Numbered from the stretch's first letter, positions 1 through 64,000 are shown. The stretch is 64,000 bases of DNA from a virus (IMGVR_UViG_3300021399_000096); one strand, 5' to 3'. Made by a program: numbers and translations. The notes: generated by a model not told the origin, from the sequence alone.

Positions 1-563
1 AAATCACATTGTTCTATATCTCCAAGAAATATATATTTACTATTATATCCAATGCGCGTTATTAAAGATTTAAATATATCCATTGTAATATTCTAAGCTT
101 CATCCATTATTAAACCTGCATTATCAAATTGACAACCACGTATAAATGCTAATGGGACAACTTTAATTTTGTTCTATTCTATTAATTTTTTTCTTTGTTC
201 TTCACCAATTAATTTGTCAATATTATGAAAATATGATTGCATTGATGGCGATAATTTTTCTTCTAATGATCCTTTTAAAAATCCAACTTCTTCATGAGGA
301 ATTTGCGTAACAGATTTAACTAATAAAATTTGTTCTATTTGATTTTTTTCCAGCATTTTTAAAAATGAATACAAAGATAAAAATGTTTTTCCTGAACCTG
401 GTGTACCAGAACAAATAGTTACCTCATGTGTTTCGATAGATTTTAAAAATTCTTTTTGGCGAGGGTTCATGCATTTAATTTGTTTAACATGAAGCTTTTT
501 CTCTTCCTCAACAAATTCTAAAGTTTGTTTAGTTCCGTGAACTTTTTTACTTTTTCCACTCAT
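1..563 (-). CDS. phoH: PhoH-like ATPase. The gene is partial: it runs past the window start. It has 3 in-frame TAG sense codons at 174-176, 93-95 and 15-17.
   Basis: Walker A motif GTPGSGKTF is present. Reading through the TAGs in frame gives IRGCQFDNAGLIMDEA[TAG]NIT and FLGDIE[TAG]CD. These align with the PhoH motifs VDEAQN and GDIEQID, with each TAG on the conserved Gln. Confidence 0.8.
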
Positions 564-693
564 ATATAATTAAAATAATTTTGTTAATTTAGTTACCACT
601 GTAACTAAAATAAGTCAAATTTTATTATCAAAATATTTATTTTAATGTTTATAGAAAAACCAATCTCTATTTTTACTTTATAATATAAAATAT

Positions 694-1632
694 TTGTATA
701 TATTAAAAATGAAAAAAGAAATTAGTGTAGTTTTTATAGGGTTTTGGCCAACATTTAATATGAATGATAATATATTTCTCAATGTGCTAAAAATAAGATA
801 TGATGTAAATGTTTTAACTGAAGTAAATGAAAATACTAAAATAGATTTATTAATATATTCTTGTTTTTATAATAAAGACCAATATAATTTTATTAAAAAT
901 ACTAATTGTAAAAAATTATATTATTCTGGAGAAAATGATTTTCCTAATTTTAATGTTTGCGATTATGCAATGACGCAAAACAGGTTTGAATTCAATAATA
1001 GACATTTTTATCTTCCATACTGGTTTATGAGCCAATTACATTATGAAAATAATACATTATATGTTGATATAGATACCAATGGAGTAGATGATAGAAATTT
1101 ATTAAATCGAGATTTTTGCTCTTTTGTTGTTTCTAATAATTTTTGTTCTATGCCTATTAGAACTAAAATATTTAATGAAATTTCTAAATATAAACAAGTT
1201 GCAAGTGGTGGAAAATATTTGAATAATATAGGCAGTCTGGTTGATGACAAGAAAGAGTTTTTACAAAAATACAAATTTAATATTGCATCTGAAAATTCAA
1301 TAGTTAATGGATATATAACAGAAAAATTAATAGATGCATTTAATGCACATACTGTTCCAATTTATGCAGGGCCAAATGATGTTATAGATGAATTTAATCC
1401 GGATGCATTTATTAATTTGAATGACTTTGCTTCATTTGAAGAGATGCTTATGTATATTGAAAGAATTGATACAGATGATGAATTATATATGAATATGTTA
1501 AAAGCACCAAAAATTAAAGATAGAGTAATAGAATCTTTACAAAGACAATTTACAGATTTCCTGTTTTTTGTAGTTGAAGATAAAAGAAAATTCAATCATA
1601 AATACGGTCGAATTGGAATAATGAATAGATAA
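694..1632 (+). CDS. Glycosyltransferase family 10 (alpha-1,3-fucosyltransferase-like).
   Basis: The C-terminal motif FNIASENSIVNGYITEKLIDAF matches the GT10 signature FxxAFENS...DYVTEKL. The start may be the internal ATG at 709. Confidence 0.5.
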   Translation: MYILKMKKEISVVFIGFWPTFNMNDNIFLNVLKIRYDVNVLTEVNENTKIDLLIYSCFYNKDQYNFIKNTNCKKLYYSGENDFPNFNVCDYAMTQNRFEFNNRHFYLPYWFMSQLHYENNTLYVDIDTNGVDDRNLLNRDFCSFVVSNNFCSMPIRTKIFNEISKYKQVASGGKYLNNIGSLVDDKKEFLQKYKFNIASENSIVNGYITEKLIDAFNAHTVPIYAGPNDVIDEFNPDAFINLNDFASFEEMLMYIERIDTDDELYMNMLKAPKIKDRVIESLQRQFTDFLFFVVEDKRKFNHKYGRIGIMNR

Positions 1633-1876
1633 TAAACTTTATTTTTATAAATAAATATAATAATAAAACAGATAAACCAACGCAGAACTTTTTATTGGTT
1701 CTTGCAACTGGTTTTGATGTTTAGATTTAATGATTTGAGTGATTTATTTTATTTAAGTTTTTTGAATTTTATTTTAATAAGAATTTTTAAGTTTAAGTTT
1801 AATTTTATTGAACCTTTTTTGAAATATTTTATATAATTATTAAGTCGAAAATAATAAAAATTAATTTATATTTAAA

Positions 1877-2992
1877 ATGCAAGATTTTGATTCATTTTTT
1901 AATGCAAAACCAGTTGTTCAAGAACAACAACCAACACAATTAACAGAGTTTCGTCCTAATCCTAAAAAGGGGCAAAATGGAGTTTTTGAGGCGGTAGTTC
2001 GCTTCCTCCCTAATCCAAAGGATCCAGCAAACAAGTCTATTATTACTAAGTATTATGCTTATTTGACTCACCCGGTTTCACAAGTAAAGAAGACTATTGA
2101 TTGTCCTTCTACAGTTGGACAACAAGACCCAATTCAAAACACATTCTTTGCACTTCGCAATGCTGCTAATCCAGTTCTTCAAGAGAATTCTAAACAATTT
2201 TCTCGTAAGCAACAATTTGCGTCACTTGTTCAAGTTATCTCTTGTAAATCAGACCCAAGCCTCGTAAATAAGATTTTGGTTTGGAAATATGGTGTAAAGA
2301 TTTCTGAAAAGATTAATCAAGAAATGAATCCGCCTATGGGTGAAGGACATAACCCATTCAATCTTTTCACAGGACGTCCATTTAGCGTTCAGGTAAAAGA
2401 GGTTAGTGGATACCCAAATTATGACGCATGCCAATTTTTTGATTTAGCTCTCGAACAATCAGGTATGCGTATTGTAACGCCTAATGTGCAAGGTCAACCT
2501 CAAGTTTCTGTAGTAACTACTGCTACTATAGCAACGGAACAAGGTAAAGCTGCTGTATTTAATTATCTTAAGGAGAACGCTCCTGATACAGACAAATATG
2601 AATATCATCCTTGGACTACTGAGGAAACAGAATTTGTAAATGAGTGTATTCGAATTTATTCTAATCCTCAAGCATCTATTCAAGCTGCAGCAGCTGCTCA
2701 AAATCCTGGTGCACCACAAGTTGCAACACAACCAATGGCCGCTCAAACGGCTCAAGCACCAGTTCAACTTCCACAGATGCCAACACAAGTTGCTCAAGCA
2801 CCAACTCAAGCTACACCAGCACCACAATTTGGTCTTGACACTCTTGGTGTTGCACAAACTTCACCAGCAGGTTTCCAACCTACTAACATCCCTGGTGTAG
2901 ATGATTTGCTTAATCAAGCACCTCAACAAACAAATGCGGCACCAACTATGGCTCTTGATTTGAATGACGTTCTTAATGGACAGATTCTCTGA
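1877..2992 (+). CDS. ssDNA-binding protein, T4 gp32-like, with a Q/A/P-rich low-complexity C-terminal tail.
   Basis: GVFEAVVRFLPNPKDP...TIDCPS resembles the gp32 region AVIRFLPSKNDE plus the zinc-binding Cys cluster. The ORF is intact and GC-richer with biased codon usage, as expected for a highly expressed gene. Confidence 0.65.
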   Translation: MQDFDSFFNAKPVVQEQQPTQLTEFRPNPKKGQNGVFEAVVRFLPNPKDPANKSIITKYYAYLTHPVSQVKKTIDCPSTVGQQDPIQNTFFALRNAANPVLQENSKQFSRKQQFASLVQVISCKSDPSLVNKILVWKYGVKISEKINQEMNPPMGEGHNPFNLFTGRPFSVQVKEVSGYPNYDACQFFDLALEQSGMRIVTPNVQGQPQVSVVTTATIATEQGKAAVFNYLKENAPDTDKYEYHPWTTEETEFVNECIRIYSNPQASIQAAAAAQNPGAPQVATQPMAAQTAQAPVQLPQMPTQVAQAPTQATPAPQFGLDTLGVAQTSPAGFQPTNIPGVDDLLNQAPQQTNAAPTMALDLNDVLNGQIL

Positions 2993-3085: not shown

Positions 3086-5020
3086 ATGCAAAACTTTATT
3101 CCAGAAGAAGAAATACGAAGAGATTAGAAAATAGTTGATGATGGTTTTTATAATGAAGCATATTTAAGAGAAACTACTCCAATTGTTATAAAGAGAGAAA
3201 TTGGTCAGAAATATGGTCTTAACCCTAAGCAATGTTCAAAAGCAGAAACAATTGCACATGCAATATTATTATATTTAAGAACAATTAGAAATCAAAAAAC
3301 AATATTTACTTTAGATGATATTCATGATTTTTATAAATTGACTGACAATCTTGGTTCATATGACAAATTAAAACCATTTTTAGAATTAGAATCTAAATCA
3401 TTTATAGAATTTGTATTAAAGCACCAATATGATTATATTTTATCTAAATGTCCTGGAATTAAACCATACACATTAGATAATATAGATAAAATTACAATTA
3501 GCCGAGATCTCACTAATGGTTCTAGCAATGTTCGATTTTAGTTAGAACGATATAAAGCTATTAAAAAATATTATGATGAAACTTATGGAATAAAATAGAA
3601 TATAGCTAAAGAAACAAATAAATCTAAATATGATTTAGAAGTTTTATTTTCAGAAGAAACTTATGAAATTAGAGAATAGCTTGAAGAGATACTTGAAGAT
3701 TTTATAAATATGTGTTATGACACTTATGTATATTAGTCTCCTACACATATGAAAATATTACAATTATCTAAAAAATATAGAGAATTGCGTCGTGAAAAAA
3801 ATCCATATTACCATCCAAACCATATTCCAGATGAAGAAGAACAAAGATATATTAAATATAGTAATGCTTTATATCCTGTAACAGTTTTATATAATCATTT
3901 TGAGGATATTAATAAAAAAGAATAGAGAATAGAATACTCTATTAAATATTTTAATAAACAATTTAATGATTTAATTAATAAGAAAATTATTAGAACTTTA
4001 TTAGATAAGAATGTAAATATAGATGATATTAATATAAGTGAATTAAAGAAAGCTGATTTTGGATATTATTTTATTATTAATTATAGAAACGGAAAATTAT
4101 ATGCAAATTTTTTAATTTAGCCAGAGAGTTTAGATGTTTCAGATATGGATGAATACGTTAGAACAGCACATCATTTATTTCCAGAACATATTCATGGAGA
4201 TGCAATTAACTACGTGATGAAAGTAACAGTTAGACCTCTAAATAAAAGTTTAAATGAAGGTTTTGATTTTAATTAGATAAACTTAGCATTAGATGATTTT
4301 GATGATGAAGAACAAGTTCAACATGTAAAATCTAAACAAGTCTAGAATAGAGATTATACTAAAGAATATTTAGATTTGATGAATGCTGTTGTTGATTTAG
4401 GGCTTCCATCAGGTACTTTATGGTGCAAATATAATCTCGGTGTTAATCCAAATAAATTAAAATCTGCCAAAAAATGGTATGGTGATTTTTACGCATGGGG
4501 AGAAACAGAACCTAATAAATTAAAATATACATGGGATACATACACATTAGGAAATGAACAATTTGATTTATTTAAATATATGCGAGATAATTTTTATTCA
4601 AAATCTGGAAAAGCTGATAAATTATTAGCATTATTACCAGAAGATGATGCAGCTTATTAGAATATGCATATTGGCAATTATAAATTTCATATACCAACTA
4701 AAGAATAGTTTGAAGAACTAATATCTAATACAACTCATGAATATATTAAAAACTATAATGGGATTAATAAATTAAATGGGATGGCATTTATCAGTAAAAA
4801 TGGAAATACATTATTTTTACCGGGTAGTGGTATGATTGAGGAAAAATATTATGATAACCAATGCGGTTATTATTGGACATCGACTCTTGATGAAATTTCA
4901 TGTCATATGGCATTTAGATATTGGTTTAACCAAAATAGCATTTTTTATAGTTAGCGAAGAGACTATGAAGATCCAAGATATTATGGGTTTAATATCCGTC
5001 CGGTAATAAATTTAAGATAA
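3086..5020 (+). CDS. Large recoded protein of about 644 aa with about 12 in-frame TAG codons. It has a unique N-terminal region and a C-terminal FISUMP/DUF1566-like domain.
   Basis: A single frame is open from the ATG at 3086 to the TAA at 5018, apart from the TAGs. The motifs LGLPSGTLWCKYNLG, YGDFYAWGETE, YYWTSTL and GFNIRPV match the Fibrobacter-succinogenes-major-paralogous (DUF1566) domain. The ORF track shows only fragments 3338-3541 and 4376-4660. Confidence 0.65.
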
Positions 5021-5024: not shown

Positions 5025-5798
5025 ATGAAAAAATATAAACAAATATTAGAAGCAATTAATAGAGGCATCTAGTTAGCACTAGATGATTTTGATGATGAAG
5101 AACCTATTATAAAAAATATTAAATCTAAACAAGTATAGAATAGAGACTATACTAAGGAATATTTAGATTTAATGAAAGAAGTTGTTGATTTAGGTTTGCC
5201 ATCAGGAACTTTATGGTGTAAATATAATCTTGGGTGTGATTGGAGGTTTTTAAATAAAGATCCTTATTATACTACATATTTAGATTGGTATGGTGATTAC
5301 TTTGCTTGGGGTGAAACAGAATTAGGGACAAAGCCAGAATATTCATGGGAAACATATAAATTTGGAAAAGAATTAACTAAATATAATAATAAAGATAATT
5401 TAAATACATTACTATCTGAAGATGATGCTGCGTATTAGAATAGTAATTTAAAGTTTTGCATACCAACACCTGAATAGTTTAATGAATTAATAAAAAATAC
5501 AATAAATAAACCAGTTGAAAAATATAGAAATGTATATTATTTAGATGGCTGGTTATTTATAGGGAAAAATGGTAATGAATTATTTTTTCCAGCATGTAAA
5601 AAATGTGGAGAAAAAGATGTAAATGAATATCCTACAAATGGAAATTATTGGACTAATACAGTTATTAATTCTAAAATTAATAATATGCAATATGGCATGA
5701 CATTAAATTTTAATACTAATAAATTAAAACCTGAAATTTTTTGTGCTTAGTGCGCTCGTTACAAAGGGCTTCCAATTCGTCCAGTAATAAATTTGTAA
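5025..5798 (+). CDS. Tandem paralog of the C-terminal half of the preceding gene: a FISUMP/DUF1566-like domain protein with 5 in-frame TAG codons.
   Basis: A single frame is open from the ATG at 5025 to the TAA at 5796. It carries LGLPSGTLWCKYNLG, GDYFAWGETE and GLPIRPVINL. Nucleotides 5087-5240 are a near-duplicate of 4293-4450. Confidence 0.65.
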
Positions 5799-7169: not shown

Positions 7170-10100
7170 ATGGGTAAAATTTCTATTGATTTAAATTCAT
7201 TTAAAGCTGCTGGTATTTATACTCTTGAGATTGATAATACTGCCAGAGTTGCAGATGAATCAGCTGAATCATTACGCATGTTAGTCGGTTTTTCTAATAA
7301 AGGCCCGTTCAATAGGCCCGTTCTTCTTACTGAAGATGCTGACCGACTTCGTATTTTTGGTGATGCTGATACAAAATTAGAGCATAAAGGCTGCTTCTTT
7401 AATAGAATGTTAAGAACCCTCGTAGCAGGCGGCCCTGTTATTGCACTTAATTTATTAAATGTTGACAAATCATATTCAGGTCCAGATCAAGTTAACCTTG
7501 CTGCAATGTCTATGGATGCAGGAACTGCAAATCCACGTGTTGCTGATGCAGGAACATATGGTGAATATGACTATTTAGCAGAGTCTATCGACAGTTCAGT
7601 ATATGGGACTAAAAAAGGCGATAATCTTCCTTATGTTGGTAAAACTCCATTTGCAAGTGTATATAACAGATCACGTTTCTGGGTTCCAGATAAAGATTTG
7701 TTAAATGCTGAAGCTGCGCGTTTATTAAATGCATAGGAAAATCCAACATCATACTCATTTGAAAATAGCAACTTGCTTAATTTTGTAAATGTTGGTACAG
7801 AAGAAATTTCTATTTTGGTATTTAAACCAACTAGTATGCCTGGGTATGAAGTAACTGCTGAATCATGGTTTGGCGGTCGTGAAAATATTCCATTTGGATG
7901 GGTTCGTCCATATGATAATATTTCTGATTACTTCCTTCAAGTAGTTTGTGTTAAAGGTAACTGGTCTAATTATCCAGTTCTTTCTACAGACCCAATATGG
8001 AAAGGATTCTTTAATAAGAACGGTATTATTAAGAGCCGTATTAATCAATTCATGAGTGCAGAAGGTGTTACTGTTTTAGGTTCATGGACAGGATGCATTA
8101 TTCCAGACTTTACTGACAAGCAAGGTAATATGCTTAACCTTGAAAAGAAAGTCAATGCTGCTACTGAAAGAACCGGTTTGTTAATGGCATTTAATAATGA
8201 TTTGGCAAATGTTCTTACATACGACTATTCTGGACTTGATACTACTTCTACAAATCCTGGTAAAGGATGTTGGGGATTAGATATTGATGGCAATAGCGAA
8301 GTCGGTGGCGGTGAAACTGAAGCTAAATATATCGTTGATATGGTTGGCCACCAAGTATTTATGGGTGCTGATAATATTTCTGGAGAAGATTGGAGTGAAG
8401 ATGCATCTGCAATTGCAAATGATCCTTCAATTAGTTCAGAATATAATTGGGTACTTAATAAATCCCGTAATAAACGTATTCATGTAGATCCTTCATTGTT
8501 TATATTTGAGATAACAGATTCATCTGTAGATATTAGTGTATATAATGCATCTACTGAAGGTAATTCAAATAAGCTAAATCCGGGTATTTATGTAAATAGT
8601 TCATTATTTTATAATCCAGCTCCAAAAAATGCAGATGATACATCAGTACAATATTCAGCAGCTGCAATTTTAGATAAAATTATGGTGTCTAAAATATATG
8701 TTATTGCTAATAGTGGTACTGTTTCTAAACCTTCTGCATTAAATATTACTAAAGTGGATAAAGTAAAGACACCAACTGGTGTAGATGCTTCTGTATTCTT
8801 TACATTAAATGAAAAAGAATATTGTCAATTACTTACTATTAATATTGATGGTAGCACTAATATTATTAATAGTGTTAATGGTAATGGATTAAAAAAGAAA
8901 AAAGAAACTGTTGATGGATCTGTTAATGGTATTAATTTCTTATCATACAATTATGTTGCAAATGCTTCTAATAGTATTCAAGAAACTATTAATGCCGTTA
9001 AATATTTCAATGATCCTTCACTTTGGACTATTAATGGTTCGGTAGGTGAAATGCCTATTTCAGAAGATACTAAAAATATGTTTATCATATATAGTGCAGA
9101 AGAATGGGTAGACAGCAAAATTAAATTAGGTGATTATGTAAAAAATATTACATATGAAAATAATGAAGGTGAAACTGAAGAATATCAACTTATCCCAGGT
9201 TTAACAAAAGTAATTAGAAAACAATTTGTTACTTTTAATGACGGAGAAATTACATATCAAGGTAAAAAATATAAATTTAATGCAGAGTACACTGATGTAA
9301 TTAATAATAAAAAAGGATTCTACTTAATTACTTGTACATCTCCAGTATTGATTAAAAAAGATAATAATAGTATTGATCGTTAGCTTCCAATTTCTGATGA
9401 TAGAATTTCAGGTTCATTGAGATTTATTCCAATGAAAGGTTTGACAATTACTTCTAAACATCGTCCTGGATATGATGCTAATGGTAATCTTAATATCGAA
9501 GAAGGTATTGAAAAAGTTTATTCAGTATTGAATGATGAAGGTATCAAACGTGGTTTAATGAATCCTGCAATGGTTGATTATCGCTACATTATCGACTCAA
9601 TGTCATATGGTCTTGCACCAGAACTTGGTGGTAAAGTATGGTTATCAAGAATAGCTGAAGAAAGAGGCAAATGTACTGCAATTCTTAACTTGCCATCAGC
9701 AAAACAATTTGCAGTAAGTTCTAATCCTTACTTCTGCGATACTTATACTCCAGGTGCTGAAGCTCGTCCATCAATGAATACTAAATATATTCCTGAAGGC
9801 GGTAATACTGAAATGGGTTCAACTGTTATTTTCAGCTTACCAAGTGAAGAAGATGGTGCTAAGTTTACTGCTTGCTTCTGGCCACACTTGATTTACCAAG
9901 AGAATGGTAAAGAGATTGTAGTTCCGCCAGCAGCTGATGTAGCAAATGTTTTGAATCGTAAATTTAATGGTATCAATGATCCATACGCAATTAGTGCTAA
10001 CCAAAATGGTATATTATCTAACAGATATCTCAAAGGTCTTGAGTTCTTAGCGGATTTAACAGATCGTGAATATCTTGAACCATTCGGTGTTAATACAATT

Positions 10101-10478
10101 ATTAAGGATCAAGGTTCTATCATGATTTATGGTAATCAAACAGCTTATCAGGCAATGAAGTCAGACTTTAATAAACTTCATGTTCGTGAAAATCTTAACA
10201 CTGCTGAAATTGAATGTGAGAAAGTTCTTAAGAAATATAACTTTAAATACAATACTCCTGCAGTTCGTGCAAATATTGTTCAACAGCTTACTCCAGTTCT
10301 TTCTGCAATGCAAATTTCTGGAGCATTAGTTAAATATGAAATTATTTGTGATGAAACTAATAACACTCCAGATGTTATTGAAGCAGATGCATGTGTTGTA
10401 GAAATCAACTTGTGGATGAATCACGGAATGGAGAAAATTATTCAAAAGTTCACACTTCAACGTTTATCGGATCAATAA
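7170..10478 (+). CDS. Contractile tail sheath protein, T4 gp18-like, about 1102 aa, with large insertions and two in-frame TAG codons at 7734-7736 and 9381-9383.
   Basis: Three ORF-track pieces (7170-7736, 7773-9383, 9417-10478) lie in one frame and are separated only by TAG. No ATG or RBS follows the TAGs. The C-terminus YEIICDETNNTPDVIEADACVVEINLW aligns with gp18 YRVVCDTTNNTPSVIDRNEFVATFYIQ. Confidence 0.75.
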
Positions 10479-12304: not shown

Positions 12305-13234
12305 TTATCTAAATGTTGTTTTCTTTCCGGAGTTAACTATAGATTCAATATAAGATTTATCATCTCTAGTTAATCTGTTAGTTGGAGATTCTGTAAAGCC
12401 CATATGCCATCCAAGCCATTGAACCAAATCTGCATACTGCTATCCATTATCATAATGTATATAATATTTAAAAGAATAGCGTTTTTCTTCAATATTTACA
12501 CTAATACCATGGTTTCTTAACCATTTGATATGATTTTCTGCTGCAGCCATTGGAGAAGCAAATTCTCCAGCATCATAATTATAAGGAGAATATACAAAAT
12601 CTGTTATAAAATCTCCAGATTTTTCTTCAACAGAAGTAATCTCTTTAAATTCACAGGTTCTTCTCAAAATCATATTAACATCCATTTGAATTTGAGCTTC
12701 AGAACGGGTTTCCCATTTCCCAGATTTATCAATTTCTGCACGAATTGCTTCTGGTGTTGCTGGAATTTCTCCATTATTAATTTTTTGAATTATTTCAAAT
12801 TTAACTCTCTGACGTGGTGTTTTAATTTTATCAATTTGAATATATTGTTTCATTATATTCTATTTGTTCTCATTAACAGAATCATTAACAGAATTCTTAT
12901 TAACTTTTTGAATTGAAATTCTAGGAGATTGCCCAAGAGAATTATCAATATCTAAAACATTTGAATTAACTAATAAAGAAATAACTTTAATAACTTCTTC
13001 ATGAGTTTTGCATGTTACTCTGATAGAGCCAGAACCATAATTGTCAAATGCTGGTAATTTAGAAGATAATGCATCTAATGTTTTCTTATTCATTCCGTCA
13101 CAACGAACTAAATAAATTTCGCCTGAAACTTCTTGGCTAACTGGAGCAATATCATCAACTTCATTCAAAGAACGTTTAACTTCTTTGGCAACTTGCTCCA
13201 TTATTCTATTATATAAATCAGAATTTTTTTGCAT
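12305..13234 (-). CDS. Leader-family paralog of about 309 aa with two in-frame TAG codons at 12860-12862 and 12440-12442.
   Basis: Track ORFs 12860-13234 and 12440-12853 lie in one frame and are separated by TAG plus two codons. The frame continues to the TAA at 12302-12304. The N-terminus MQKNSDLYNRIMEQVAKEVKRSLNEV matches the family leader. Confidence 0.55.
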
Positions 13235-13330: not shown

Positions 13331-13666
13331 TTAAAGATCATCTTTATCTATTGTTCTATAGCATAATGGATATAAAATAGCATTAATTGCAAAAATTGGA
13401 GATACATGATGATCCAAATATACTCCATCAGTAATAGCATTCAACATAACTTGTAACTATCTTTCTGGTAGATTTTCTTTTATTATTTTTGCAATATTTA
13501 ATCCAATTTCATTAATTTCATATCTTGAATCTGGAGATTTATCAATTTTCTATCCACGTTCATTTGTATAAACTTCTGGATATTCACCTTCATTCAATGC
13601 CTTTTTAACTTCTTTAGCAACAGAAGCCATAATGCTTTCATATAAAGCTTTTTTGTCTCTTTTCAT
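13331..13666 (-). CDS. Leader-family paralog of 111 aa with two in-frame TAG codons.
   Basis: Manual translation gives MKRDKKALYESIMASVAKEVKKALNEGEYPEV..., a frame that is open only if TAG is read as sense. The gene was missed by the ORF track. Confidence 0.5.
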
Positions 13667-48972: not shown

Positions 48973-48975
48973 ATG

Positions 48976-49625: not shown

Positions 49626-49627
49626 TT

Positions 49628-49999: not shown

Positions 50000-50000
50000 T

Positions 50001-50303: not shown

Positions 50304-50305
50304 TT

Positions 50306-50923
50306 ATGAAAGAAATTAATAACTTTGACAAACTAAGACGATTCCTTTGTGATGACACTACATTTGTAGCAGATAATAAGAAATCCATTATTTGGATTTG
50401 GGTTGTTATGCGTGCAAAGGATAACACAGAACATAAAGAGCGAACTATTAAATCTTATCATATTCAAAGTCTTGAGGATTTTGATTATAAAAAAGATGAG
50501 ATTATTGAACTTTGTAAGCATTATCAGTGCCGGGCATATATTTGTGTTAATCCGAAACCAATTCTTAATGTTCTTTTTTCGTTGCAATCTATTGTAATGG
50601 AAAATATTAAGAATGAGGTTAATGGCGGTTCTTCAATGCTTCTTAAAGGAATGCTTGATTCTGCTGTTATGAAATCCGGTTCGAACGGAAACAAATTTTG
50701 GGTTATTGATGTTGATTCTGAAGATGAAACAATTCAAATTGAAATTATTAATAAAGTAAATCGTGCACAATCCGGACATGACTATAATATTATTGAATGT
50801 GTAAAAACAGTTCATGGTGTGCATTTTATTACACATCCATTTGATACTAGAGTTTTGGAAGGTACTGGTGTCGAAGCTAAAAAAGAAGGTTTAACTTTGC
50901 TTTATGCATATTTAAATAAGTAA
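50306..50923 (+). CDS. Hypothetical protein.
   Basis: Intact ORF. Confidence 0.4.
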   Translation: MKEINNFDKLRRFLCDDTTFVADNKKSIIWIWVVMRAKDNTEHKERTIKSYHIQSLEDFDYKKDEIIELCKHYQCRAYICVNPKPILNVLFSLQSIVMENIKNEVNGGSSMLLKGMLDSAVMKSGSNGNKFWVIDVDSEDETIQIEIINKVNRAQSGHDYNIIECVKTVHGVHFITHPFDTRVLEGTGVEAKKEGLTLLYAYLNK

Positions 50924-50929
50924 TAAATT

Positions 50930-51133
50930 ATGTCAACGAATTGGAAAATATTTTTAGGTATTGTATTTGTTATAATTGGAATTCTATTATTTATGATTTT
51001 TGAAATTGCAATAGATAGCCATAATATTGCTATTGAAAACCAAAATAAAGTAGATTCACTTGAACATAAGATTGTTTTATTAGAAGAAATGCAAAAACAA
51101 AATACAACAATTAAAGTAATAATGGTGAAGTAA
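50930..51133 (+). CDS. Small membrane protein.
   Basis: TM helix IFLGIVFVIIGILLFMIFEIAI. Confidence 0.35.
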   Translation: MSTNWKIFLGIVFVIIGILLFMIFEIAIDSHNIAIENQNKVDSLEHKIVLLEEMQKQNTTIKVIMVK

Positions 51134-51136
51134 GTT

Positions 51137-51499
51137 ATGACAAAGCCAGAAAAAACAATGGAACAATTCGAGAAATTATCTCAAGATAAAAAAGATAGAA
51201 TTGTAAAACATCATCTTGAAAGACTTGAACAAGAAGCTAAGAATATTGAAAAGAGAGAACAATTGTTAGCAGATCCAAACCAAAATAAACTAGCAAAAGA
51301 ACTTCAAAACCGATTGGTTCAATGTTGTATTGACTATATTAAAGAAACTGGAGATACAAATATTGATCGAGTAACATTTACTGTAGATGCATTGCAAGAA
51401 TCTTCAAAATATGGAAGTTGGCAACCATGCACGGATTCTACATGTGAATTAGAAAAATTGACAGATGATGGATATGAAACTATAAGTTTTAGTGCGTAA
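51137..51499 (+). CDS. Hypothetical protein.
   Basis: Intact ORF. Confidence 0.4.
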   Translation: MTKPEKTMEQFEKLSQDKKDRIVKHHLERLEQEAKNIEKREQLLADPNQNKLAKELQNRLVQCCIDYIKETGDTNIDRVTFTVDALQESSKYGSWQPCTDSTCELEKLTDDGYETISFSA

Positions 51500-51502
51500 G
51501 AA

Positions 51503-51536
51503 AAGGTTGAAAAATTAATTCCAACCTTTGTTTTTT
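51503..51536. terminator. Bidirectional terminator hairpin between convergent genes.
   Basis: Stem aaggttg / caacctt flanked by an A-run upstream and a T-run downstream. Confidence 0.55.
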
Positions 51537-52695
51537 AATCTTCTTCATCAAAACACCATTTTAATGTATGAACATCAGATGTTGCATTAAATAGCCGTTT
51601 ATAATCATCAAAATCATATAATGTAATTTTGCTTTTATAAAAACGTCCAACAAAGTTTCCAGCTTTTTGTCTATATACATAATATAATTCTACTTCAGAA
51701 TTATCAAAAAGCTCAAAAGTTACTTTAGCCTAATCTATAGTTCCCTGAGGAACCATTTTATATCTATATCTTTGAGTTCTATATTCTTTTACTGGTGCAG
51801 AATCAATTAATTCAATTTTATAAGAATTAATTTTATTATTCTAATGTATATATTTTTTAAGATTTTCTGGGAATATTTCAGAATGTGCGGCTTCATTAAA
51901 TCCACCCTTTCCGTCATATTCTTGAAGATCATCTATTAATTCTTTTATATCTTCAGGAATATTATATGTTGCATATTTTCTTCTATATGCTTCAAGCTGT
52001 GCATCATTTAATATATTCAACTCATATATTCTATCTTTAAATGCTTTAACTGCTTCTTTCCAACCTAATGTATTTGCAATAATATATCTGGCAACTATTT
52101 TATTATTATCTTTGCATGAATTTGCAACTCTTTCTGGATTTGAATGTCTATTTTTATAATCAATCATCTTCATCCAGTCTCTTACAGTTGGGGCATATTC
52201 ATCAGTATTAGTTGCATCAACTTCCATATCAAATTTTCTTTCGGCATCTGCTAGTGCAAGTTGTAAATCATCATCCTTTTTAAAATTATATTCAACTTGT
52301 ATTTGCTGTATTGTTTGAATTTTAGAAGATATAATTTTAAATTCTTTATGTTTTTTAATATATTCTTGAATTTTCTATAAATCTTCTCTAATATTATAAT
52401 AACCAAACTAAGGAGAGATTGTTAGTCTTATAGGTTGATTTGAATATACCGAACCAATATAAAGAGTCAATTTGCCATAAGGTTCATATGTAAAACTATA
52501 AAATCTATTTGTTAAATTTGGAATAGATGTAAATTTTTTATAAATCCATTCCTGTATAGTCATTTTTAAAAATTGTTTAAGATCTGCTATATCTATATTA
52601 TGTTCAGGCGTGGCAGTTCTATACTCATTAAGAGCGGTTTTTACTTGCTTAGCAACTGACCTCATTATGTTTTCATATAATATATTTTTATTCAT
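51535..52695 (-). CDS. Leader-family paralog of about 386 aa with four in-frame TAG codons at 52408, 52375, 51841 and 51730.
   Basis: Track ORFs 52408-52695 and 51841-52227 lie in one frame. The whole interval 51538-52695 has no TAA or TGA in that frame. The N-terminus MNKNILYENIMRSVAKQVKTALNEY matches the family leader. The C-terminus reads ...HTLKWCFDEED. Confidence 0.55.
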
Positions 52696-53121: not shown

Positions 53122-54222
53122 ATGAATTATAATTATCCAAATATAGAAGAATCAAGAAACAAAATAAATGATTTGTTTAATGGAAAATCTATAGTATATT
53201 TTCCAATTGTTTCTATGCAAAACAGAGAAACTGGAAATTATAAATTAGATCAAGATGGAAATGTTAATAGATTTATTACATTTTTTTCAAAATGCAACAC
53301 AATGAAACAATTATATATTACACTTCCATCTAATAAAGAAAGCTGCAAATATTATACAGATTTTACTAAATCTAAAAATAATATTACAACAATTTATAAT
53401 ACTAATTTTGGACAACATGCATTAGATCAAAGAGTAAATAAAGATATTATTACTGATCAATATAATGCAAGTAAAGAAATAATAGATCATTCTGATATTA
53501 TAATAGTTGAAAGTCAAGGATTGGCAAATTTGATATTGTCTAATAATCAAAATAAAACCATTATATATTGGTGCCCAGTTTCAGTAACTAATAAAAAATC
53601 TAGATCATTTATTGAGCAATATCGAGAAATAGATAAAGAACTGTTTAATAAAGTAAATTATATAATTGTTGTATCTCCAGAACAATATGATTATTTGATA
53701 GAATTAGGAATCAATTCAGAAAAAATATTATATTATTATGAATTGATGGATCGAAGTCTCCCAGTTTTTAATCGCTATAATCATATAGATACAATATCAT
53801 CTAAGAAAATAATATATCTTCCATTCAGACTTACAGATGAAGGTTACAAATCTGAACAAATTTTAGATATTTTAGAACAATTATCTATTAAATACCCAAA
53901 TAAATTTGTTATTGTTTATTCGGATCCAAATAATTCAAAATTCGAGAGAGTAACAAAAAATCCAAATTTATATTTTAAAATATCTTCAGACAGAGATACA
54001 TATTATTCATATTTGGATTCCAAAAATGTATTGATTCCATATTTTGAAGATATTAATTATGTTAATCATGCATCAATTCATGAGTTTAATAATGAGCAAT
54101 CTAAATGTACAGTTCTATTAAACAATACTGAATATCATGCATATAATATAAAACGAAAAGATATATTATATATTGACTTCGAAGACCTTTATAAAAATTT
54201 AGAGAAATTTATAAATGAATAA
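53122..54222 (+). CDS. Hypothetical protein, possibly a glycosyltransferase-like Rossmann-fold protein.
   Basis: Intact ORF. It alternates beta-alpha patterns, but no diagnostic motif is seen. Confidence 0.35.
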   Translation: MNYNYPNIEESRNKINDLFNGKSIVYFPIVSMQNRETGNYKLDQDGNVNRFITFFSKCNTMKQLYITLPSNKESCKYYTDFTKSKNNITTIYNTNFGQHALDQRVNKDIITDQYNASKEIIDHSDIIIVESQGLANLILSNNQNKTIIYWCPVSVTNKKSRSFIEQYREIDKELFNKVNYIIVVSPEQYDYLIELGINSEKILYYYELMDRSLPVFNRYNHIDTISSKKIIYLPFRLTDEGYKSEQILDILEQLSIKYPNKFVIVYSDPNNSKFERVTKNPNLYFKISSDRDTYYSYLDSKNVLIPYFEDINYVNHASIHEFNNEQSKCTVLLNNTEYHAYNIKRKDILYIDFEDLYKNLEKFINE

Positions 54223-55246
54223 GAATAAAATAATTTGTGGACCGTGTTCAGCAGAAACTAGAGAACAAATCTTAGAAACTGCTATGTAGCTGACATCTTT
54301 AGGATATTATAATTTTAGAGCTGGTGTATGGAAGCCAAGAACTAAACCAGGCGGTTTTGAAGGTCATGGCGAAGAAGCATTAAAATGGTTGGTAGAAGCC
54401 AGAAAACTATATAATATTATTCCATATGTTGAAGTTGCAAATCCATCTCATGTTGAATTATGTAAAAAATATGGAATTAATCATTTGTGGGTTGGTGCAA
54501 GAACATCATCAGATCCATTTGCCACTCAAGAACTTGCTAATTCATTAGTAGATTTTGATTGTGAAGTTTTAGTTAAAAATCCGGTTTCTGCTGATTTAGA
54601 ATTATGGATTGGTGCAATTCAAAGAATCAAAAATGCCGGTGTAAAAACAGTTAAAGCAATTCATAGAGGATTTTCTGATTATAATGAAAAGATTTATAGA
54701 AATAGTCCAATATGGACAATTCCTCTTGAATTAAAATCAAGAATGCCTGAATTAGAAATATATTGTGATCCATCACATATATCTGGAAATTCTCAATTGA
54801 TTCCAAGTTTAATAAATCAAGCATATAATTATGGATTTGATGGATTTATTATTGAATCTCATTGTGATCCAAAAGCAGCTTGGACTGATGCAAAACAACA
54901 ATTGGTTCCATCTGATATGAATACATTAATTTCAGCATTGGAAGAAAAACCAGAAATTTCTTTGGATGAGTATGATAAATTATTATTAAGTTCATATCGT
55001 GAAACTATTAATAATATTGATACGCAACTAATTAAATTCTTTAGTGAGCGAATGAAAATTAGTAAAGAAATTGGAGAATTGAAAGGTGAACATAATATGC
55101 CAGCTTTACAATATGACAGATGGAAAGAATTGTTATCAAAAAATATTGAGTTAGGTAAAACATATAATTTAGATGAAGAATTTATTTCAAAGATTTGGAA
55201 TATTATTCATGAGGAATCTATTAAAATTCAATCAACACAAAAATAA
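54215..55246 (+). CDS. 3-deoxy-7-phosphoheptulonate (DAHP) synthase, KDO8PS-like class I-beta, fused to a C-terminal chorismate mutase. It has one in-frame TAG at 54287-54289.
   Basis: The N-terminus MNKNKIICGPCSAETREQILETAM[TAG]LTSLG...PRTKPGGFEGHGEEALKWL lies upstream of track ORF 54389-55246 in the same frame. IAGPCS-type motif, CDPSH, and a C-terminal AroQ-class CM segment LIKFFSERMKISKEIGELK are present. Confidence 0.7.
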
Positions 55247-56375: not shown

Positions 56376-56404
56376 AGAACCATTAAAACTAATGGTTCTT
56401 TTTG
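56376..56404 (+). terminator. Rho-independent terminator.
   Basis: Stem agaaccatt / aatggttct followed by a T-run. Confidence 0.65.
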
Positions 56405-56436
56405 CTATAAAATATACAAAATTAATTAAATTAGTA

Positions 56437-56967
56437 ATGACAAATTTATTTGTTATAGAAGGTCAAGATAGAGCCGGTAAAGATACATTACTTCATGATT
56501 TAGAAAAAATAGGATTAACAATATTTAGTCCAGATACAAGTTATCTTCCAAATTATCATAATGCTGATGAATTTAGAGCTGCATTAAAATTATATTTGGA
56601 AAAACAAACTAATGATATGATTAATCTAAATGTAAAAGATTTATATATTGCAAGGTATCAATTGAGTGAATATGTTTATGCTGAATTATTTAATCGACCA
56701 AATTTGTTTGAAGATTATATTAATGGTATATTAAAGGATCATTTTAAAATCAAAAACATTATTTTATTATGGGATACATATCAAGATTATTTGGATAGAT
56801 TAAAAATGATTAATGATGATTATATTGAATATACTGAAGAAGATTTTAATAAAATTAAAAATTTATATTTAAAATATAAACAACCTAATGATGTTGTTAT
56901 TTATGTAAAAACAAATACAACTCGTGAAGATTTAATAACAAAAGCAAAGTAGATAATATGCATGTAA
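56437..56967 (+). CDS. Deoxynucleoside monophosphate kinase, T4 gp1-like / thymidylate kinase-like P-loop kinase. It reads through a TAG at 56950-56952.
   Basis: VIEGQDRAGKDTL resembles T4 gp1 LSGVKRSGKDT and Tmk EGxDGAGKTT. The start is moved to the ATG after the terminator. Confidence 0.5.
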
Positions 56968-62475: not shown

Positions 62476-62514
62476 AAACTCTATAATAGTTAGAAAAAGA
62501 AATAAAATATCAAA

Positions 62515-63189
62515 ATGGAAACTAATTTGAAGATTAAGATTAATACAATGTTTCAAATGCTTGATGATTTAATTGATAGTAAGGAATACAATCAAATTAA
62601 AGATTATGCATTTAATATTTGGAAAGAAACTGGAAAATTCCCTCATTTTATTTTAGCTGGTGTAGGAAAGAATTGGTATATTTGTGAAAAAGTAGAAAAG
62701 ACATTTATTTCTATGGGATTGAAATGTACAGCATTAGATTGCACACATGCATTACATGGTGATTTAGGTTTAATTACTTTGACAGATGAACCAAAGATCA
62801 TTATTTTTATTTCTAAATCAGGAACAACAGAAGAACTTATAAAGCTTGTAAAGATTTGCAATTATCTTAAAAATGAAAATAGAATTAAAAATAGTTTGTT
62901 TGTATCATTTTATTTGAATGTTGAAGCTGCTGAAAAGTATAATGATTTATATGATATTTGTTTACATCCAGATATTACTAAATATAATGGTATGCATCTT
63001 TCTGAATTTGATTCCAGAAATTTGGTTCCAAGTTTATCAATTAATATTATGCAATTGACACTGGATTCTCTTGGAGTTGCATTATTTGAAGCAGATAAAA
63101 AATTAATAGAAAATTATAAATATAACCATTTAGCTGGTAATAATGGGAAAATACTTGGTGGTGATAAAATTATAAATTCTATAAAATGA
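62515..63189 (+). CDS. SIS-domain phosphosugar isomerase, GmhA/KpsF-like.
   Basis: HFILAGVGKNWYICEKV...LHGDLGLIT...IIIFISKSGTTEEL is the SIS-domain pattern. Confidence 0.5.
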   Translation: METNLKIKINTMFQMLDDLIDSKEYNQIKDYAFNIWKETGKFPHFILAGVGKNWYICEKVEKTFISMGLKCTALDCTHALHGDLGLITLTDEPKIIIFISKSGTTEELIKLVKICNYLKNENRIKNSLFVSFYLNVEAAEKYNDLYDICLHPDITKYNGMHLSEFDSRNLVPSLSINIMQLTLDSLGVALFEADKKLIENYKYNHLAGNNGKILGGDKIINSIK

Positions 63190-63250
63190 AAACATAAACA
63201 TTTTAAATTTTATCAATATAATTATTATATTAAGAAACTAATTTGAAAAT

Positions 63251-64000
63251 ATGAGTAAGACAAATATCGTTATTGTGGCTGGCGGTCTTGGAACTCGTTT
63301 TAATGAGTTATCGGTATTTCCAAAGATTTTATTGCCAACAAGTACACATAATTCTATCTTGAATGAAATTCAGGATAGTTTTTGTGATTATACAGGAACC
63401 ATATCATTAATTATCAATGAGAAATTTTATGATATGGTTGACAATTATATTAAAGTCAATGGAATTAAAAATATAAATCTTATTAAATCTACAAAGATTA
63501 ATGGTTCTTTGAACAGTATAATGGATGTTTATAATGAACTTCCAAAAAAGAATGTGTTGTTTATTTGGTCTGATTTGATTTTTGATAAAGAAACTTCATC
63601 ATTTATTTTAGATACATGTGAAAAAACCAATAAAGATTATATTGTATTTTGTTATGAAAATGGACAATACCGATATAATTTAACTGATGATTTAGTTTTT
63701 GAAGCTAATGTAAAGGATGGAAACATTCCTGGCATTTACTATATTAATAATTTTGAATATGTGTATAATAATTTGAATATGCTTCAAAAGAAAGATAATT
63801 TAGATTTATTAGATTTTATTATTAATGATTTTGAACATACAGATTGTAATCTTGAAAAACAAAATATTGAAAAATTAACAGAATATCGTGATCTTGATAC
63901 TTATATTGATATATTAAAAAATCATAAAAGAGAATTGGCACAAACTAGATTCTTTAATAAACTTATTATTGATAAAGAAAATAAAATTGTTACTAAACAA
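63251..64000 (+). CDS. Sugar-phosphate nucleotidyltransferase. The gene is partial and continues past the window end.
   Basis: The N-terminus NIVIVAGGLGTRFNEL gives the GGxGTR(L/F) signature. The frame is open to position 64000. Confidence 0.5.
   Translation, partial: MSKTNIVIVAGGLGTRFNELSVFPKILLPTSTHNSILNEIQDSFCDYTGTISLIINEKFYDMVDNYIKVNGIKNINLIKSTKINGSLNSIMDVYNELPKKNVLFIWSDLIFDKETSSFILDTCEKTNKDYIVFCYENGQYRYNLTDDLVFEANVKDGNIPGIYYINNFEYVYNNLNMLQKKDNLDLLDFIINDFEHTDCNLEKQNIEKLTEYRDLDTYIDILKNHKRELAQTRFFNKLIIDKENKIVTKQ

What the first reader, a model, noticed from the sequence alone, without database searches (positions are those of the whole stretch)
1..64000. TAG is a sense codon (most likely Gln) throughout this phage; TAA and TGA are the true stops
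The window shows two kinds of direct evidence for TAG being read as an amino acid. (1) In the PhoH gene on the minus strand, reading through TAG gives LIMDEA[TAG]NIT and FLGDIE[TAG]CD. These two TAGs sit exactly on the invariant Gln of the PhoH DEAQN and GDIEQ motifs. (2) At least 12 loci have track ORFs in the same frame separated only by TAG, with no start codon or RBS after the TAG. The tail sheath at 7170-10478 has 2 TAGs and the capsid protein at 23173-25080 has 1. The gene at 3086-5020 has about 12 and the gene at 5025-5798 has 5. The minus-strand genes at 12305-13234, 13331-13666 and 51535-52695 have 2, 2 and 4. The gene at 22175-22903 has 1, DAHP synthase at 54215 has 1, and the HNH endonuclease and dNMP kinase also carry TAGs. 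Every reconstructed gene finally ends in TAA or TGA; one ends in tandem TAG-TGA. Standard-code gene callers therefore fragment or miss these genes.
Basis: seen in the sequence. Interest (0 to 1): 0.9.

Follow-up and report, generated by a model that had tools for sequence, protein, structure and literature searches.

The report
Lak-type megaphage reads TAG as glutamine
This stretch comes from a relative of the giant gut 'Lak' phages, a group already known to read the stop codon TAG as glutamine.

Summary
The core observation holds. After a TAG the frame stays open for a median of 119 codons, against 3 after TAA and 9 after TGA (p=3e-6). Segments downstream of TAGs evolve like coding DNA. One headline detail is wrong: the PhoH GDIEQ glutamine is CAA. 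The second PhoH TAG lies elsewhere, at 174-176.

Across 73 alignment columns with syntenic relatives, Gln is by far the best-fitting residue and CAA is the commonest partner codon. TAG falls on the invariant Q of PhoH DEAQN. It also matches a Q that is CAA in 5 of 5 sheath orthologues and a Q in 62 of 91 bacterial-type DUF1566 homologues.

The window is Lak-clade (28% GC; capsid gene 71% nt identical to Lak-A/B/C). No tRNA lies in the window, but a CUA-anticodon tRNA sits on a relative's contig whose genes are mostly 90-100% identical.

TAG use is patchy: a 22-kb block that includes RF2 has none. One TAG (27419) occupies the orthologous stop position, backed up by TGA.

All of this was published for Lak phages (Devoto 2018/19, Crisci 2021, Borges 2021/22). 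Verdict: real, correctly interpreted, already known.

The parts
1..563 (-). PhoH-like ATPase (runs off the window start). In-frame TAGs at 93-95 (the Q of the Walker-B motif DEAQN) and 174-176 (a variable site).
   Evidence: Pfam PhoH E=3.4e-44. Alignment to PDB 3b85. Sequence read. Relative L009 has CAA at the DEAQN site.
3086..5020 (+). 644-aa protein with a DUF1566/Lcl-like C-terminal domain and 12 in-frame TAGs; TAG makes up 46% of the Gln+TAG codons.
   Evidence: Full-length homologues of 636-660 aa among those retrieved. The site 'IPTKE[TAG]FEEL' is Q in 62 of 91 bacterial-type homologues.
5025..5798 (+). 257-aa paralogue of the C-terminal domain of the preceding gene, with 5 in-frame TAGs. 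Three of them lie in sequence contexts shared with TAGs of the 3086 gene (KSKQV[TAG]NRDYTKEY, DDAAY[TAG]N, IPT.E[TAG]F.ELI).
   Evidence: repeat family D3.
7170..10478 (+). Tail sheath, 1102 aa, with TAGs at 7734 and 9381. The standard code splits it into 188 + 536 + 353 aa pieces in one frame.
   Evidence: Pfam Phage_sheath_1C. The TAG at 9381 is CAA in 5 of 5 orthologues. Nucleotide differences in the last segment fall 6/5/55 at codon positions 1/2/3.
12305..13234 (-). 309-aa protein of the paralogue family with a shared N-terminus; 2 TAGs.
13331..13666 (-). 111-aa member of the same N-terminal family; 2 TAGs.
16627..17013 (+). HNH endonuclease with 2 TAGs (16645, 16912).
   Evidence: the CxxC...DH...N...CxxC motifs are intact only if TAG is read through. 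The standard-code ORF would start at a TTG inside the first CxxC.
22175..22903 (+). 242-aa protein upstream of the capsid gene, with 1 TAG (22415).
   Evidence: CAA in 4 of 4 orthologues.
23173..25080 (+). Major capsid protein (gp23 family) with 1 TAG (23464).
   Evidence: Pfam Gp23 E=1.3e-34. At the aligned site relatives have TAG, CAA, CAG or TAY. Relative L012 carries a TAG at a site that is Gln in the nine other sequences.
25268..27424 (+). 718-aa DUF7487 protein ending ...FYIFKK-TAG-TGA. The TAG occupies the position where orthologues have their stop.
51535..52695 (-). 386-aa member of the N-terminal family, with 4 TAGs.
   Evidence: two reciprocal TAG/CAG exchanges with relative L031.
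54215..55246 (+). DAHP synthase fused to chorismate mutase, with 1 TAG (54287) downstream of the conserved N-terminal IIxGPCSxES motif.
   Evidence: CAA in relative L044. Public gene calls give 343 aa or 285 aa depending on the code used.
56392..56967 (+). Thymidylate-kinase-like protein with a TAG five codons before its TAA. Whether this TAG is sense or stop is undecided.
41227..42333 (+). Peptide chain release factor 2 (recognises UAA and UGA, not UAG). It is TAG-free, ends in TAA, and reads as a single ORF without the bacterial +1 frameshift.
   Evidence: Pfam PCRF + RF-1. TIGR00020 prfB scores 415 bits against a cut-off of 370, while the RF1 models fall below their cut-offs. PDB RF2 scores 282 bits against 147 for RF1. 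The SPY and GGQ motifs are present, and SPY occurs in all 80 retrieved Bacteroidales RF2 loci.
33766..35223 (+). CCA-adding tRNA nucleotidyltransferase (tRNA maturation); TAG-free.
29674..51729 (.). 22-kb block of genes with no in-frame TAG. It contains RF2, the CCA-adding enzyme and NAPRTase.
   Evidence: Relatives L031 and L032 are almost TAG-free across the same block, with one TAG column.
27441..27517 (+). Copy 1 of a five-copy intergenic element. The other copies are at 32478-32554, 37756-37832, 42316-42392 and 48988-49064. It contains TAATTTTG and is a candidate early, host-type promoter.
   Evidence: Its function is inferred, not shown.

Best explanation
The window is part of a Lak-clade megaphage that uses genetic code 15. 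UAG is decoded as an amino acid, most probably glutamine, by a phage tRNA with a CUA anticodon encoded outside this window. Termination relies on UAA and UGA and is reinforced by a phage-encoded RF2, which cannot read UAG.

Shown here: TAG interrupts conserved genes whose downstream parts are under coding selection; Gln is the residue that best matches TAG sites; the window holds an RF2 gene; close relatives hold a tRNA(CUA).

Inferred: the tRNA is charged with Gln by the host GlnRS. Also inferred is that recoding is conditional. On this view the TAG-free genes (including RF2 and the CCA-adding enzyme, which sit behind a repeated host-like promoter element) can be translated at once in a standard-code host. 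The TAG-bearing genes (sheath, capsid, DUF1566-like proteins and others) would give full-length protein only once the suppressor tRNA is present.
For: (1) Frame continuity. A median of 119 open codons follows TAG, against 3 after TAA and 9 after TGA (p=3.4e-6). Coding density is 86.3% under code 11 and 91.0% under code 15; code 4 gives 85.8%.

(2) Coding selection downstream of TAG. In the last sheath segment, nucleotide differences fall 6/5/55 at codon positions 1/2/3. Conserved domains span TAGs in the sheath, gp23 capsid, DAHP synthase, PhoH and HNH genes.

(3) Amino-acid identity. There are 73 TAG-containing columns in 12 orthologue groups. Q is present in 28 of them against a background frequency of 3.7%. 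CAA, which is two mutations from TAG, is the commonest opposite codon. Q beats the next residue (E) by 171 lnL on pair counts and 35 lnL on one count per column. Specific sites: the Q of PhoH DEAQN; sheath 9381 is CAA in 5 of 5 orthologues; 22415 is CAA in 4 of 4; TAG and CAG exchange reciprocally in the 51535 gene; 'PTKE[TAG]F' is Q in 62 of 91 bacterial-type homologues.

(4) Machinery. RF2 lies at 41227-42333, with orthologues in relatives. A CCA-adding enzyme is present. A tRNA(CUA) is found in L009 and in L029. L029 is on the same 204-kb IMG/VR contig as L015 and L031, whose genes are mostly 90-100% identical to the window's.

(5) Clade. The window is 28% GC and its capsid gene is 71% nt / 62% aa identical to Lak-A/B/C. 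Code 15, a Sup-tRNA(CTA), RF2 and TAG-free regions longer than 5 kb are published for Lak phages.

(6) Patchiness. The 38 TAGs fall in 15 genes where about 26 would be expected if they were spread at random among Gln sites; no permutation in 10,000 gave 15 or fewer.
Against: No tRNA is found in the window or in the 10 kb to its right, so the decoder of this particular genome has not been seen. There is no peptide evidence.

Of the 25 window TAG sites with an informative partner, 11 show no Gln in any relative. Some align with Tyr, Trp or Leu codons that are one mutation from TAG, for example capsid 23464 against TAC/TAT in Lak-A/B/C-type genomes.

The TAG at 27419 lies at the orthologous stop position. 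The TAG at 56950 is undecided. The early/late partition rests only on promoter-like motifs. One of those motifs is not over-represented across the window (23 matches against 22.5 expected).
Confidence: 0.88

Rival explanations
1. TAG is translated, but as a residue other than Gln (Tyr, Trp, Lys or Glu), or ambiguously as several.
For: Several TAG sites align only with non-Gln residues. Examples are the 3086 gene at columns 17 and 156 (Tyr/Leu/Trp) and the capsid site, which is TAY in Lak-A/B/C-type genomes. The tRNA(CUA) has an A73 discriminator and C3:G70, unlike E. coli tRNA-Gln as I recall it from general knowledge (sequence). Devoto et al. report that tRNAscan ranked Gln only third for the Lak Sup-tRNA.
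Against: The likelihood ranks Q far above every other residue; Y, W and L rank 12th or lower. At functionally constrained sites the partner is Gln: PhoH DEAQN, sheath 9381, gene 22415, capsid column 773 and DUF1566 'PTKEQ'. The non-Gln partners sit in variable columns.
Confidence: 0.06
2. TAG is not uniformly a sense codon. In some (early) genes it still serves as the working terminator, with a downstream TAA or TGA as back-up, so its meaning depends on the time of infection or on the gene. This is not exclusive of the best explanation.
For: 25268-27424 ends ...FYIFKK-TAG-TGA, whereas four orthologues end ...FYIFKK-TAA/TGA. 56392 has a TAG five codons before its TAA. A standard-code host would supply RF1 until the suppressor tRNA accumulates (general knowledge, and the model).
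Against: There are only two such cases. About 0.7 would be expected by chance from the overall TAG frequency (my estimate from the counts). Distant homologues of the 56392 protein run 4-9 residues past the TAG position. A single TAA-to-TAG transition in front of a fortuitous TGA would look the same.
Confidence: 0.3
3. The standard code applies, and the interrupted genes are pseudogenes, genuinely split genes, or sequencing or assembly errors.
For: Most genes (61 of 76) are intact under code 11, and density rises only 5 points under code 15.
Against: The interruptions are always TAG and never TAA or TGA. The same TAGs are conserved in independently assembled relatives. Essential virion genes (sheath, capsid) are affected. 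Downstream segments show differences biased to the third codon position. The HNH and DAHP synthase genes would lose catalytic or N-terminal motifs.
Confidence: 0.01
4. A second stop codon (TGA or TAA) is also reassigned.
For: Crisci et al. report a TAA-anticodon suppressor tRNA in 51 of 51 Lak genomes.
Against: Frames close within a median of 3 codons after TAA and 9 after TGA, and code 4 gives no density gain. Orthologues end at the same residue with TAA or TGA used interchangeably. The phage carries an RF2 that reads both.
Confidence: 0.02

Closest known systems
Lak megaphages of Prevotella (Lak-A/B/C; Devoto et al. 2018/2019, Crisci et al. 2021; proposed order 'Grandevirales')
   Same: Shared features: low GC (26-28%), a gp23-type capsid protein (62% aa identity), TAG-to-Gln recoding, patchy TAG use with TAG-free stretches longer than 5 kb, structural genes that carry TAG, and phage-encoded RF2 and CCA-adding enzyme.
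   Different: The lineage is more distant. The best hit in the GenBank phage collection is only 71% nt identical over the capsid gene, with little synteny around it. The closest relatives are unannotated IMG/VR and ENA contigs of 204-380 kb. The RF2 is 45-48% identical to that of the Lak-A/B/C-type contigs.
Code-15 crAss-like phages (Ivanova 2014; Peters et al. 2022, PMC9523058)
   Same: TAG is read as Gln in a phage of a Bacteroidota host, and late genes carry the recoded codon.
   Different: For crAss-like phages the reassignment has been confirmed by metaproteomics (abstract seen). For the Lak clade, a 2024 paper still notes that there is no protein-level validation. The phage lineage and genome size are unrelated.
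The 'code-change module' model of Borges et al. 2021/22, e.g. TGA-recoded Jade phages with Sup-tRNA + TrpRS + RF1
   Same: The code-change genes are themselves written in the standard code. Here RF2 and the CCA-adding enzyme lie in a TAG-free block, and the recoded codon is concentrated in other genes.
   Different: Here the release factor is RF2 and the codon is TAG. No aminoacyl-tRNA synthetase or tRNA is seen next to RF2 in the window. TAG also occurs in non-structural genes (PhoH, HNH, DAHP synthase).
Bacteroidales chromosomal RF2 (prfB)
   Same: 55-62% identity; the same RVSPYNAQGKRMTSF recognition loop and GGQ motif.
   Different: It is phage-borne and reads as one uninterrupted ORF from its ATG. 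The bacterial autoregulatory +1 frameshift site (my own knowledge) is not needed to read it.

Membership tests
Genetic code 15 (TAG = Gln) phage | In-frame TAG inside conserved genes, with coding sequence continuing downstream | tested here: met
Genetic code 15 (TAG = Gln) phage | TAG positions align preferentially with Gln in homologues | tested here: met
   Q is best by 171 lnL (pair counts) and 35 lnL (per column). Also DEAQN, CAA in 5 of 5 and 4 of 4 orthologues, and Q in 62 of 91 bacterial-type homologues.
Genetic code 15 (TAG = Gln) phage | TAA and TGA remain terminators | tested here: met
   Frames close within a median of 3 and 9 codons. Orthologues end at the same residue with TAA or TGA.
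Genetic code 15 (TAG = Gln) phage | A tRNA with a CUA anticodon in the genome | tested here: inconclusive
   None in the window or its right flank. Present in relatives L009 and L029; L029 is on a contig whose genes are mostly 90-100% identical to the window's. The rest of this genome was not available.
Genetic code 15 (TAG = Gln) phage | Peptides with Gln at TAG positions | not testable with these tools
   Needs metaproteomics.
Lak megaphage clade | Capsid and core-gene similarity to Lak-A/B/C | tested here: met
   The capsid gene is 71% nt / 62% aa identical. 15 of the 16 matching records in the phage collection are Prevotella Lak phages.
Lak megaphage clade | Low GC (about 26%) and a phage-encoded RF2 | tested here: met
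   GC is 28.0%. RF2.
Lak megaphage clade | Genome larger than about 400 kb; Prevotella host | not tested
   Only 64 kb is in hand. Related contigs reach 380 kb, and exact-match proteins occur on contigs of 0.2-1 Mb. The RF2 is of Bacteroidales type, which fits the expected host but does not prove it.
Release factor 2 (prfB) | Scores above the curated RF2 model cut-off and below the RF1 cut-offs; has the recognition tripeptide and GGQ | tested here: met
   TIGR00020 scores 415.5 against a cut-off of 370. The RF1 models score 228 and 204 against cut-offs of 400 and 423. SPY aligns to E. coli SPF, and GGQ is present. SPY occurs in all 80 Bacteroidales RF2 loci retrieved; retrieval may have favoured that motif.

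The most novel reading that the evidence does not exclude
The window may hold a clean, directly testable layout of a translational timer. On one side is a 22-kb TAG-free block, which carries RF2 and the CCA-adding enzyme, punctuated by five copies of a conserved element with a Bacteroidetes-type TAnnTTTG promoter box. On the other side are TAG-bearing genes, several of which are preceded at -25 to -45 by a TAAATAAATATA motif that resembles the T4 late promoter. If this reading is right, promoter class and codon choice act together. UAG would be a stop early in infection (host RF1) and Gln late, and the terminal TAG-TGA of gene 25268 would be a visible trace of that dual meaning.
Probability: 0.35. 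Interest if true: 0.5.

Novelty: already known. Interest (0 to 1): 0.2.

Why it matters
The main consequence is practical. Standard-code gene callers truncate or split the sheath, capsid, HNH, DAHP synthase and other genes of this phage. Public assemblies of the very same proteins carry both versions, for example DAHP synthase at 343 aa and at 285 aa.

Scientifically the finding adds a further, more distant Lak-clade lineage with the same code and machinery. That agrees with the published view that recoding goes back to the Lak ancestor. It does not open a new question. The unresolved points are protein-level proof for the Lak clade, who charges the tRNA, and whether recoding times late gene expression. 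These are already posed in the literature, and this locus is merely a convenient place to test them.

Tried and rejected
(1) Synteny with GenBank Lak-A1, Lak-B1 and Lak-C1 around the capsid gene gave only the capsid gene and two or three neighbours, too few for codon statistics. I replaced it with closer ENA and IMG/VR relatives.

(2) The capsid TAG aligned with Tyr (TAC) in Lak-A/B/C, which briefly suggested TAG = Tyr. Closer relatives have CAA, CAG or TAG there, and the global likelihood rejects Tyr.

(3) The SPY in place of SPF in the RF2 recognition loop looked like a possible phage-specific change in specificity. I rejected this because SPY is present in all 80 Bacteroidales RF2 loci retrieved. 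One of the search patterns contained that motif, so the sample is biased, but it includes named Bacteroides, Parabacteroides and Prevotella species.

(4) A DAHP synthase query against IMG/VR found no relatives. A metagenome scan with the neighbouring U32-like gene gave only distant ones (31-74% identity), which did not settle the 56950 TAG.

(5) tRNA scans of the window and of 17 related loci (including the 10 kb to the window's right, L133) found only one CUA tRNA, in L009, before the pattern search.

(6) Pfam and PHROGs gave nothing for the TAG-rich genes 3086, 5025, 12305, 22175 and 51535, so their late or structural role is unproven.

(7) The TAAATAAATAWA motif is not enriched across the window. 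Only its placement is suggestive.

Full report
WHAT IS IN THE SEQUENCE

The window is 28.0% GC and holds no tRNA gene. With TAA and TGA as the only stops, a simple greedy ORF model gives 74 genes. After hand curation, which restored 16209-16676, re-delimited the HNH gene and added the partial PhoH, the count is 76. Coding density is 91.0%, against 86.3% with the standard code and 85.8% if TGA rather than TAG is opened.

There are 38 in-frame TAGs in 15 genes.
- 3086-5020: 12
- 5025-5798: 5
- sheath 7170-10478: 2
- capsid 23173-25080: 1
- 12305-13234(-), 13331-13666(-), 51535-52695(-): 2, 2 and 4
- 22175-22903: 1
- DAHP synthase 54215-55246: 1

The HNH endonuclease (16627-17013) has 2 TAGs. Under the standard code its ORF would begin at a TTG inside the first CxxC motif. 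The thymidylate-kinase-like gene 56392-56967 has 1 TAG. Gene 25268-27424 ends TAG-TGA.

One headline statement is wrong. In PhoH (563..1, minus strand) the Gln of GDIEQCD is CAA (9-11). The two real TAGs are at 93-95, on DEA[TAG]N, and at 174-176, in IE[TAG]NKIKVVPLAFIRG.

IS IT MORE THAN CHANCE?

After ORFs that end in TAG, the same frame stays free of TAA and TGA for a median of 119 codons. The figure is 3 after TAA and 9 after TGA (Mann-Whitney p=3.4e-6).

Pfam domains span the TAGs: sheath C-terminal domain, Gp23, DAHP_synth_1 + CM_2 and PhoH. The DAHP synthase TAG lies after the conserved N-terminal IIxGPCSxES strand, so the protein must start upstream of it.

Against orthologues, every segment between TAGs is conserved, and the differences concentrate at third codon positions. 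In the last sheath segment they fall 6/5/55 at positions 1/2/3. The same TAGs recur in independently assembled relatives. Pseudogenes, split genes and assembly errors are therefore excluded.

WHICH AMINO ACID?

I fetched syntenic relatives from ENA assemblies, IMG/VR and JGI metagenomes. I aligned the orthologues with TAG masked and read back the codons.

In the first 12 orthologue groups, 73 columns hold a TAG together with another residue:
- Gln occurs in 28 of these columns, against a background frequency of 3.7%.
- The commonest partner codon is CAA (73 pair counts), which is two mutations from TAG, so mutational proximity does not explain the association.
- Using substitution frequencies estimated from the same alignments, Gln beats the next candidate (Glu) by 171 lnL on pair counts and by 35 lnL when each column counts once. 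Tyr, Trp and Leu rank 12th or lower.

The site-level evidence is strongest where constraint is strongest:
- The invariant Q of the PhoH Walker-B motif DEAQN (PDB 3b85; CAA in relative L009).
- Sheath 9381 is CAA in 5 of 5 orthologues.
- 22415 is CAA in 4 of 4 orthologues.
- A relative's capsid TAG faces Gln in all nine other sequences.
- TAG and CAG exchange reciprocally in gene 51535.
- 'IPTKE[TAG]FEEL' in the DUF1566-like domain is Q in 62 and E in 28 of 91 bacterial-type homologues.

Of 34 alignment columns where the window has TAG, 25 have an informative partner. Of those, 14 show Gln in at least one relative and 11 do not. The 11 lie in variable columns and include Tyr and Trp codons that are one step from TAG. 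For example, the capsid TAG is TAY in Lak-A/B/C-type genomes but CAA or CAG in two others. A minor or ambiguous second reading cannot be ruled out without peptides.

WHAT THE PHAGE IS, AND THE MACHINERY

The capsid gene is about 71% nt (62% aa) identical to Prevotella Lak-A/B/C, and 15 of the 16 matching phage records are Lak phages.

- It has Pfam PCRF + RF-1 domains.
- NCBIfam prfB (RF2) scores 415 bits, above its cut-off of 370, while both RF1 models fall far below theirs.
- The best PDB matches are RF2 (282 bits) rather than RF1 (147 bits).
- It carries GGQ and an SPY tripeptide at the position of E. coli SPF.

SPY is not a phage peculiarity. The protein is 55-62% identical to Bacteroidales RF2, and all 80 retrieved bacterial loci read RVSPYNAQGKRMTSF. 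The gene is one uninterrupted ORF, has no TAG and ends in TAA. Orthologues exist in close relatives (92-95% identity) and in Lak-A/B/C-type contigs (45-48%). A CCA-adding enzyme lies at 33766-35223.

No tRNA is present in the window or in the 10 kb beyond its right end. A tRNA with a CUA anticodon occurs in relative L009. A near-identical copy (one difference) occurs in L029. L029 is on the same 204-kb IMG/VR contig as L015 and L031, whose genes are mostly 90-100% identical to those of the window. That tRNA has U1:A72 and G2:C71 and encodes its own CCA. I did not establish its charging identity.

DISTRIBUTION OF TAG

TAG accounts for 38 of 683 Gln+TAG codons and is strongly clustered. It occurs in 15 genes, where about 26 would be expected if TAGs were spread at random among Gln sites (0 of 10,000 permutations gave 15 or fewer). 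Seventeen of the 38 sit in the adjacent paralogous genes 3086 and 5025.

There is no TAG between 29671 and 51730. That 22-kb stretch includes RF2, the CCA-adding enzyme and NAPRTase. Two relatives are almost TAG-free across the same stretch, with a single TAG column.

The block running from about 27.4 to 51.7 kb is punctuated by five + strand copies of a 60-77-nt intergenic element. No shuffle reached this count. The first four copies end 5-10 nt before gene starts. The element contains TAATTTTG, which matches the Bacteroidetes -7 promoter box TAnnTTTG as I know it from the literature.

Several TAG-bearing genes (3086, 7170, 13234-, 13666-, 52695-), along with 25268 and 11044-, have a TAAATAAATATA-like motif 25-45 nt upstream of the start. 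That motif is not over-represented across the window (23 matches against 22.5 expected), so only its placement is suggestive.

These observations fit the published model. In that model the standard-code-compatible genes, including the code-change machinery, are translated first, and the TAG-bearing genes follow once the suppressor tRNA is available. This step is inference.

CAVEATS TO 'THROUGHOUT'

- The TAGs at 29671 and 57481 lie just upstream of good standard ATG starts. For DHQ synthase, the Pfam domain begins 38 residues after the ATG at 57487. They are probably not coding.
- The TAG at 27419 sits exactly where four orthologues have TAA or TGA after ...FYIFKK, and a TGA follows it directly. 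It is equally explained by a harmless one-residue extension.
- The TAG at 56950 is undecided.

COMPARISON WITH WHAT IS KNOWN

Every element found here is described for Lak phages in the literature:
- code 15 with TAG read as Gln;
- a rise in coding density on re-prediction;
- uneven TAG use, with TAG-free regions longer than 5 kb;
- structural genes that are rich in TAG;
- a Sup-tRNA with a CTA anticodon;
- RF2 in all complete genomes;
- CCA addition;
- TAG/Gln alignment statistics of 75-85%;
- the late-gene regulation hypothesis.

A 2024 taxonomy paper notes that protein-level validation is still missing for this clade, whereas it exists for crAss-like phages. The database behind one search already stores these proteins translated with Q at the TAG positions.

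The lineage is not in the GenBank phage collection at better than 71% nt identity over the capsid gene. That makes it at most another member of a known kind.

VERDICT

The phenomenon is already known. Interest is low (0.2).

Noticed in passing
window 54215-62475 (+): An apparently complete shikimate pathway in one gene row. It comprises DAHP synthase fused to chorismate mutase (54215), DHQ synthase (57487), shikimate kinase (58470), a type II dehydroquinase-EPSP synthase fusion (58927), chorismate synthase (60749) and shikimate dehydrogenase (61717). The same row occurs on other metagenomic contigs. No paper in the searched library mentions both 'Lak phage' and 'shikimate'.
   Followed up: partly
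window 17199-20308 (+): The family-B DNA polymerase is split into two ORFs in swapped order. The first ORF (17199-18746) matches the polymerase profile from position 136 onward. The second (18779-20308) holds the exonuclease domain plus polymerase profile positions 22-141. Relative L012 has both ORFs in the same order; L015 has the first. An HNH endonuclease lies about 190 nt upstream (16627-17013), with a small ORF in between.
   Followed up: partly
window 27441-27517, 32478-32554, 37756-37832, 42316-42392, 48988-49064 (+): Five copies of a conserved intergenic element (AACTTCTATTTTTTAATTT ... GTATTAATTTTGCATCGTAATTAAAAA), spaced about 5 kb apart. All lie inside or at the edge of the TAG-free block, two of them just after hairpins (27523, 32561), and the first four end 5-10 nt before a gene start. 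A 95% identical copy lies near the tRNA(CUA) in relative L029. It is a candidate early promoter.
   Followed up: partly
window 3048, 7126, 11074(-), 13262(-), 13692(-), 25225, 52718(-): A TAAATAAATATA-like motif lies 25-45 nt upstream of the start codons of mostly TAG-bearing genes. It resembles the T4 late promoter TATAAATA (my own knowledge). It is not enriched across the window; only its placement is non-random.
   Followed up: partly
window 10598-11044, 12305-13234, 13331-13666, 51535-52695 (all minus strand): A paralogue family that shares only an N-terminal ~25 residues (LYxxIMxxVAKxVKxxLNE) and its upstream region. The same N-terminus occurs in Lak-A/B/C (family D2). There are no Pfam or PHROG hits. 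The function of the shared N-terminus is unknown.
   Followed up: no
window 3086-5798 (+): Tandem paralogues with a DUF1566/Lcl-like C-terminal domain that is shared with large Bacteroidales surface-type proteins (PF07603, Big_2). Relatives carry one to four copies. They have the highest TAG density in the window: 46-62% of Gln+TAG codons.
   Followed up: partly
window 36520-37686, 31607-32431, 55260-56369, 709-1632: Other host-like genes are present: nicotinate phosphoribosyltransferase, an SPFH/Band-7 protein and a peptidase-U32-like protein. There is also a fucosyltransferase-like gene, identified from the Pfam annotation of its 85-90% identical orthologues in relatives L006 and L011.
   Followed up: no
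L133, L134, L135 (public contigs carrying proteins identical to window 62515-63189): The same phage genes are called differently on different public contigs: DAHP synthase at 343 or 285 aa, the thymidylate-kinase-like protein at 191 or 186 aa, and DHQ synthase at 345 or 328 aa. This shows that public assemblies mix code-15 and code-11 gene calls for this lineage.
   Followed up: no
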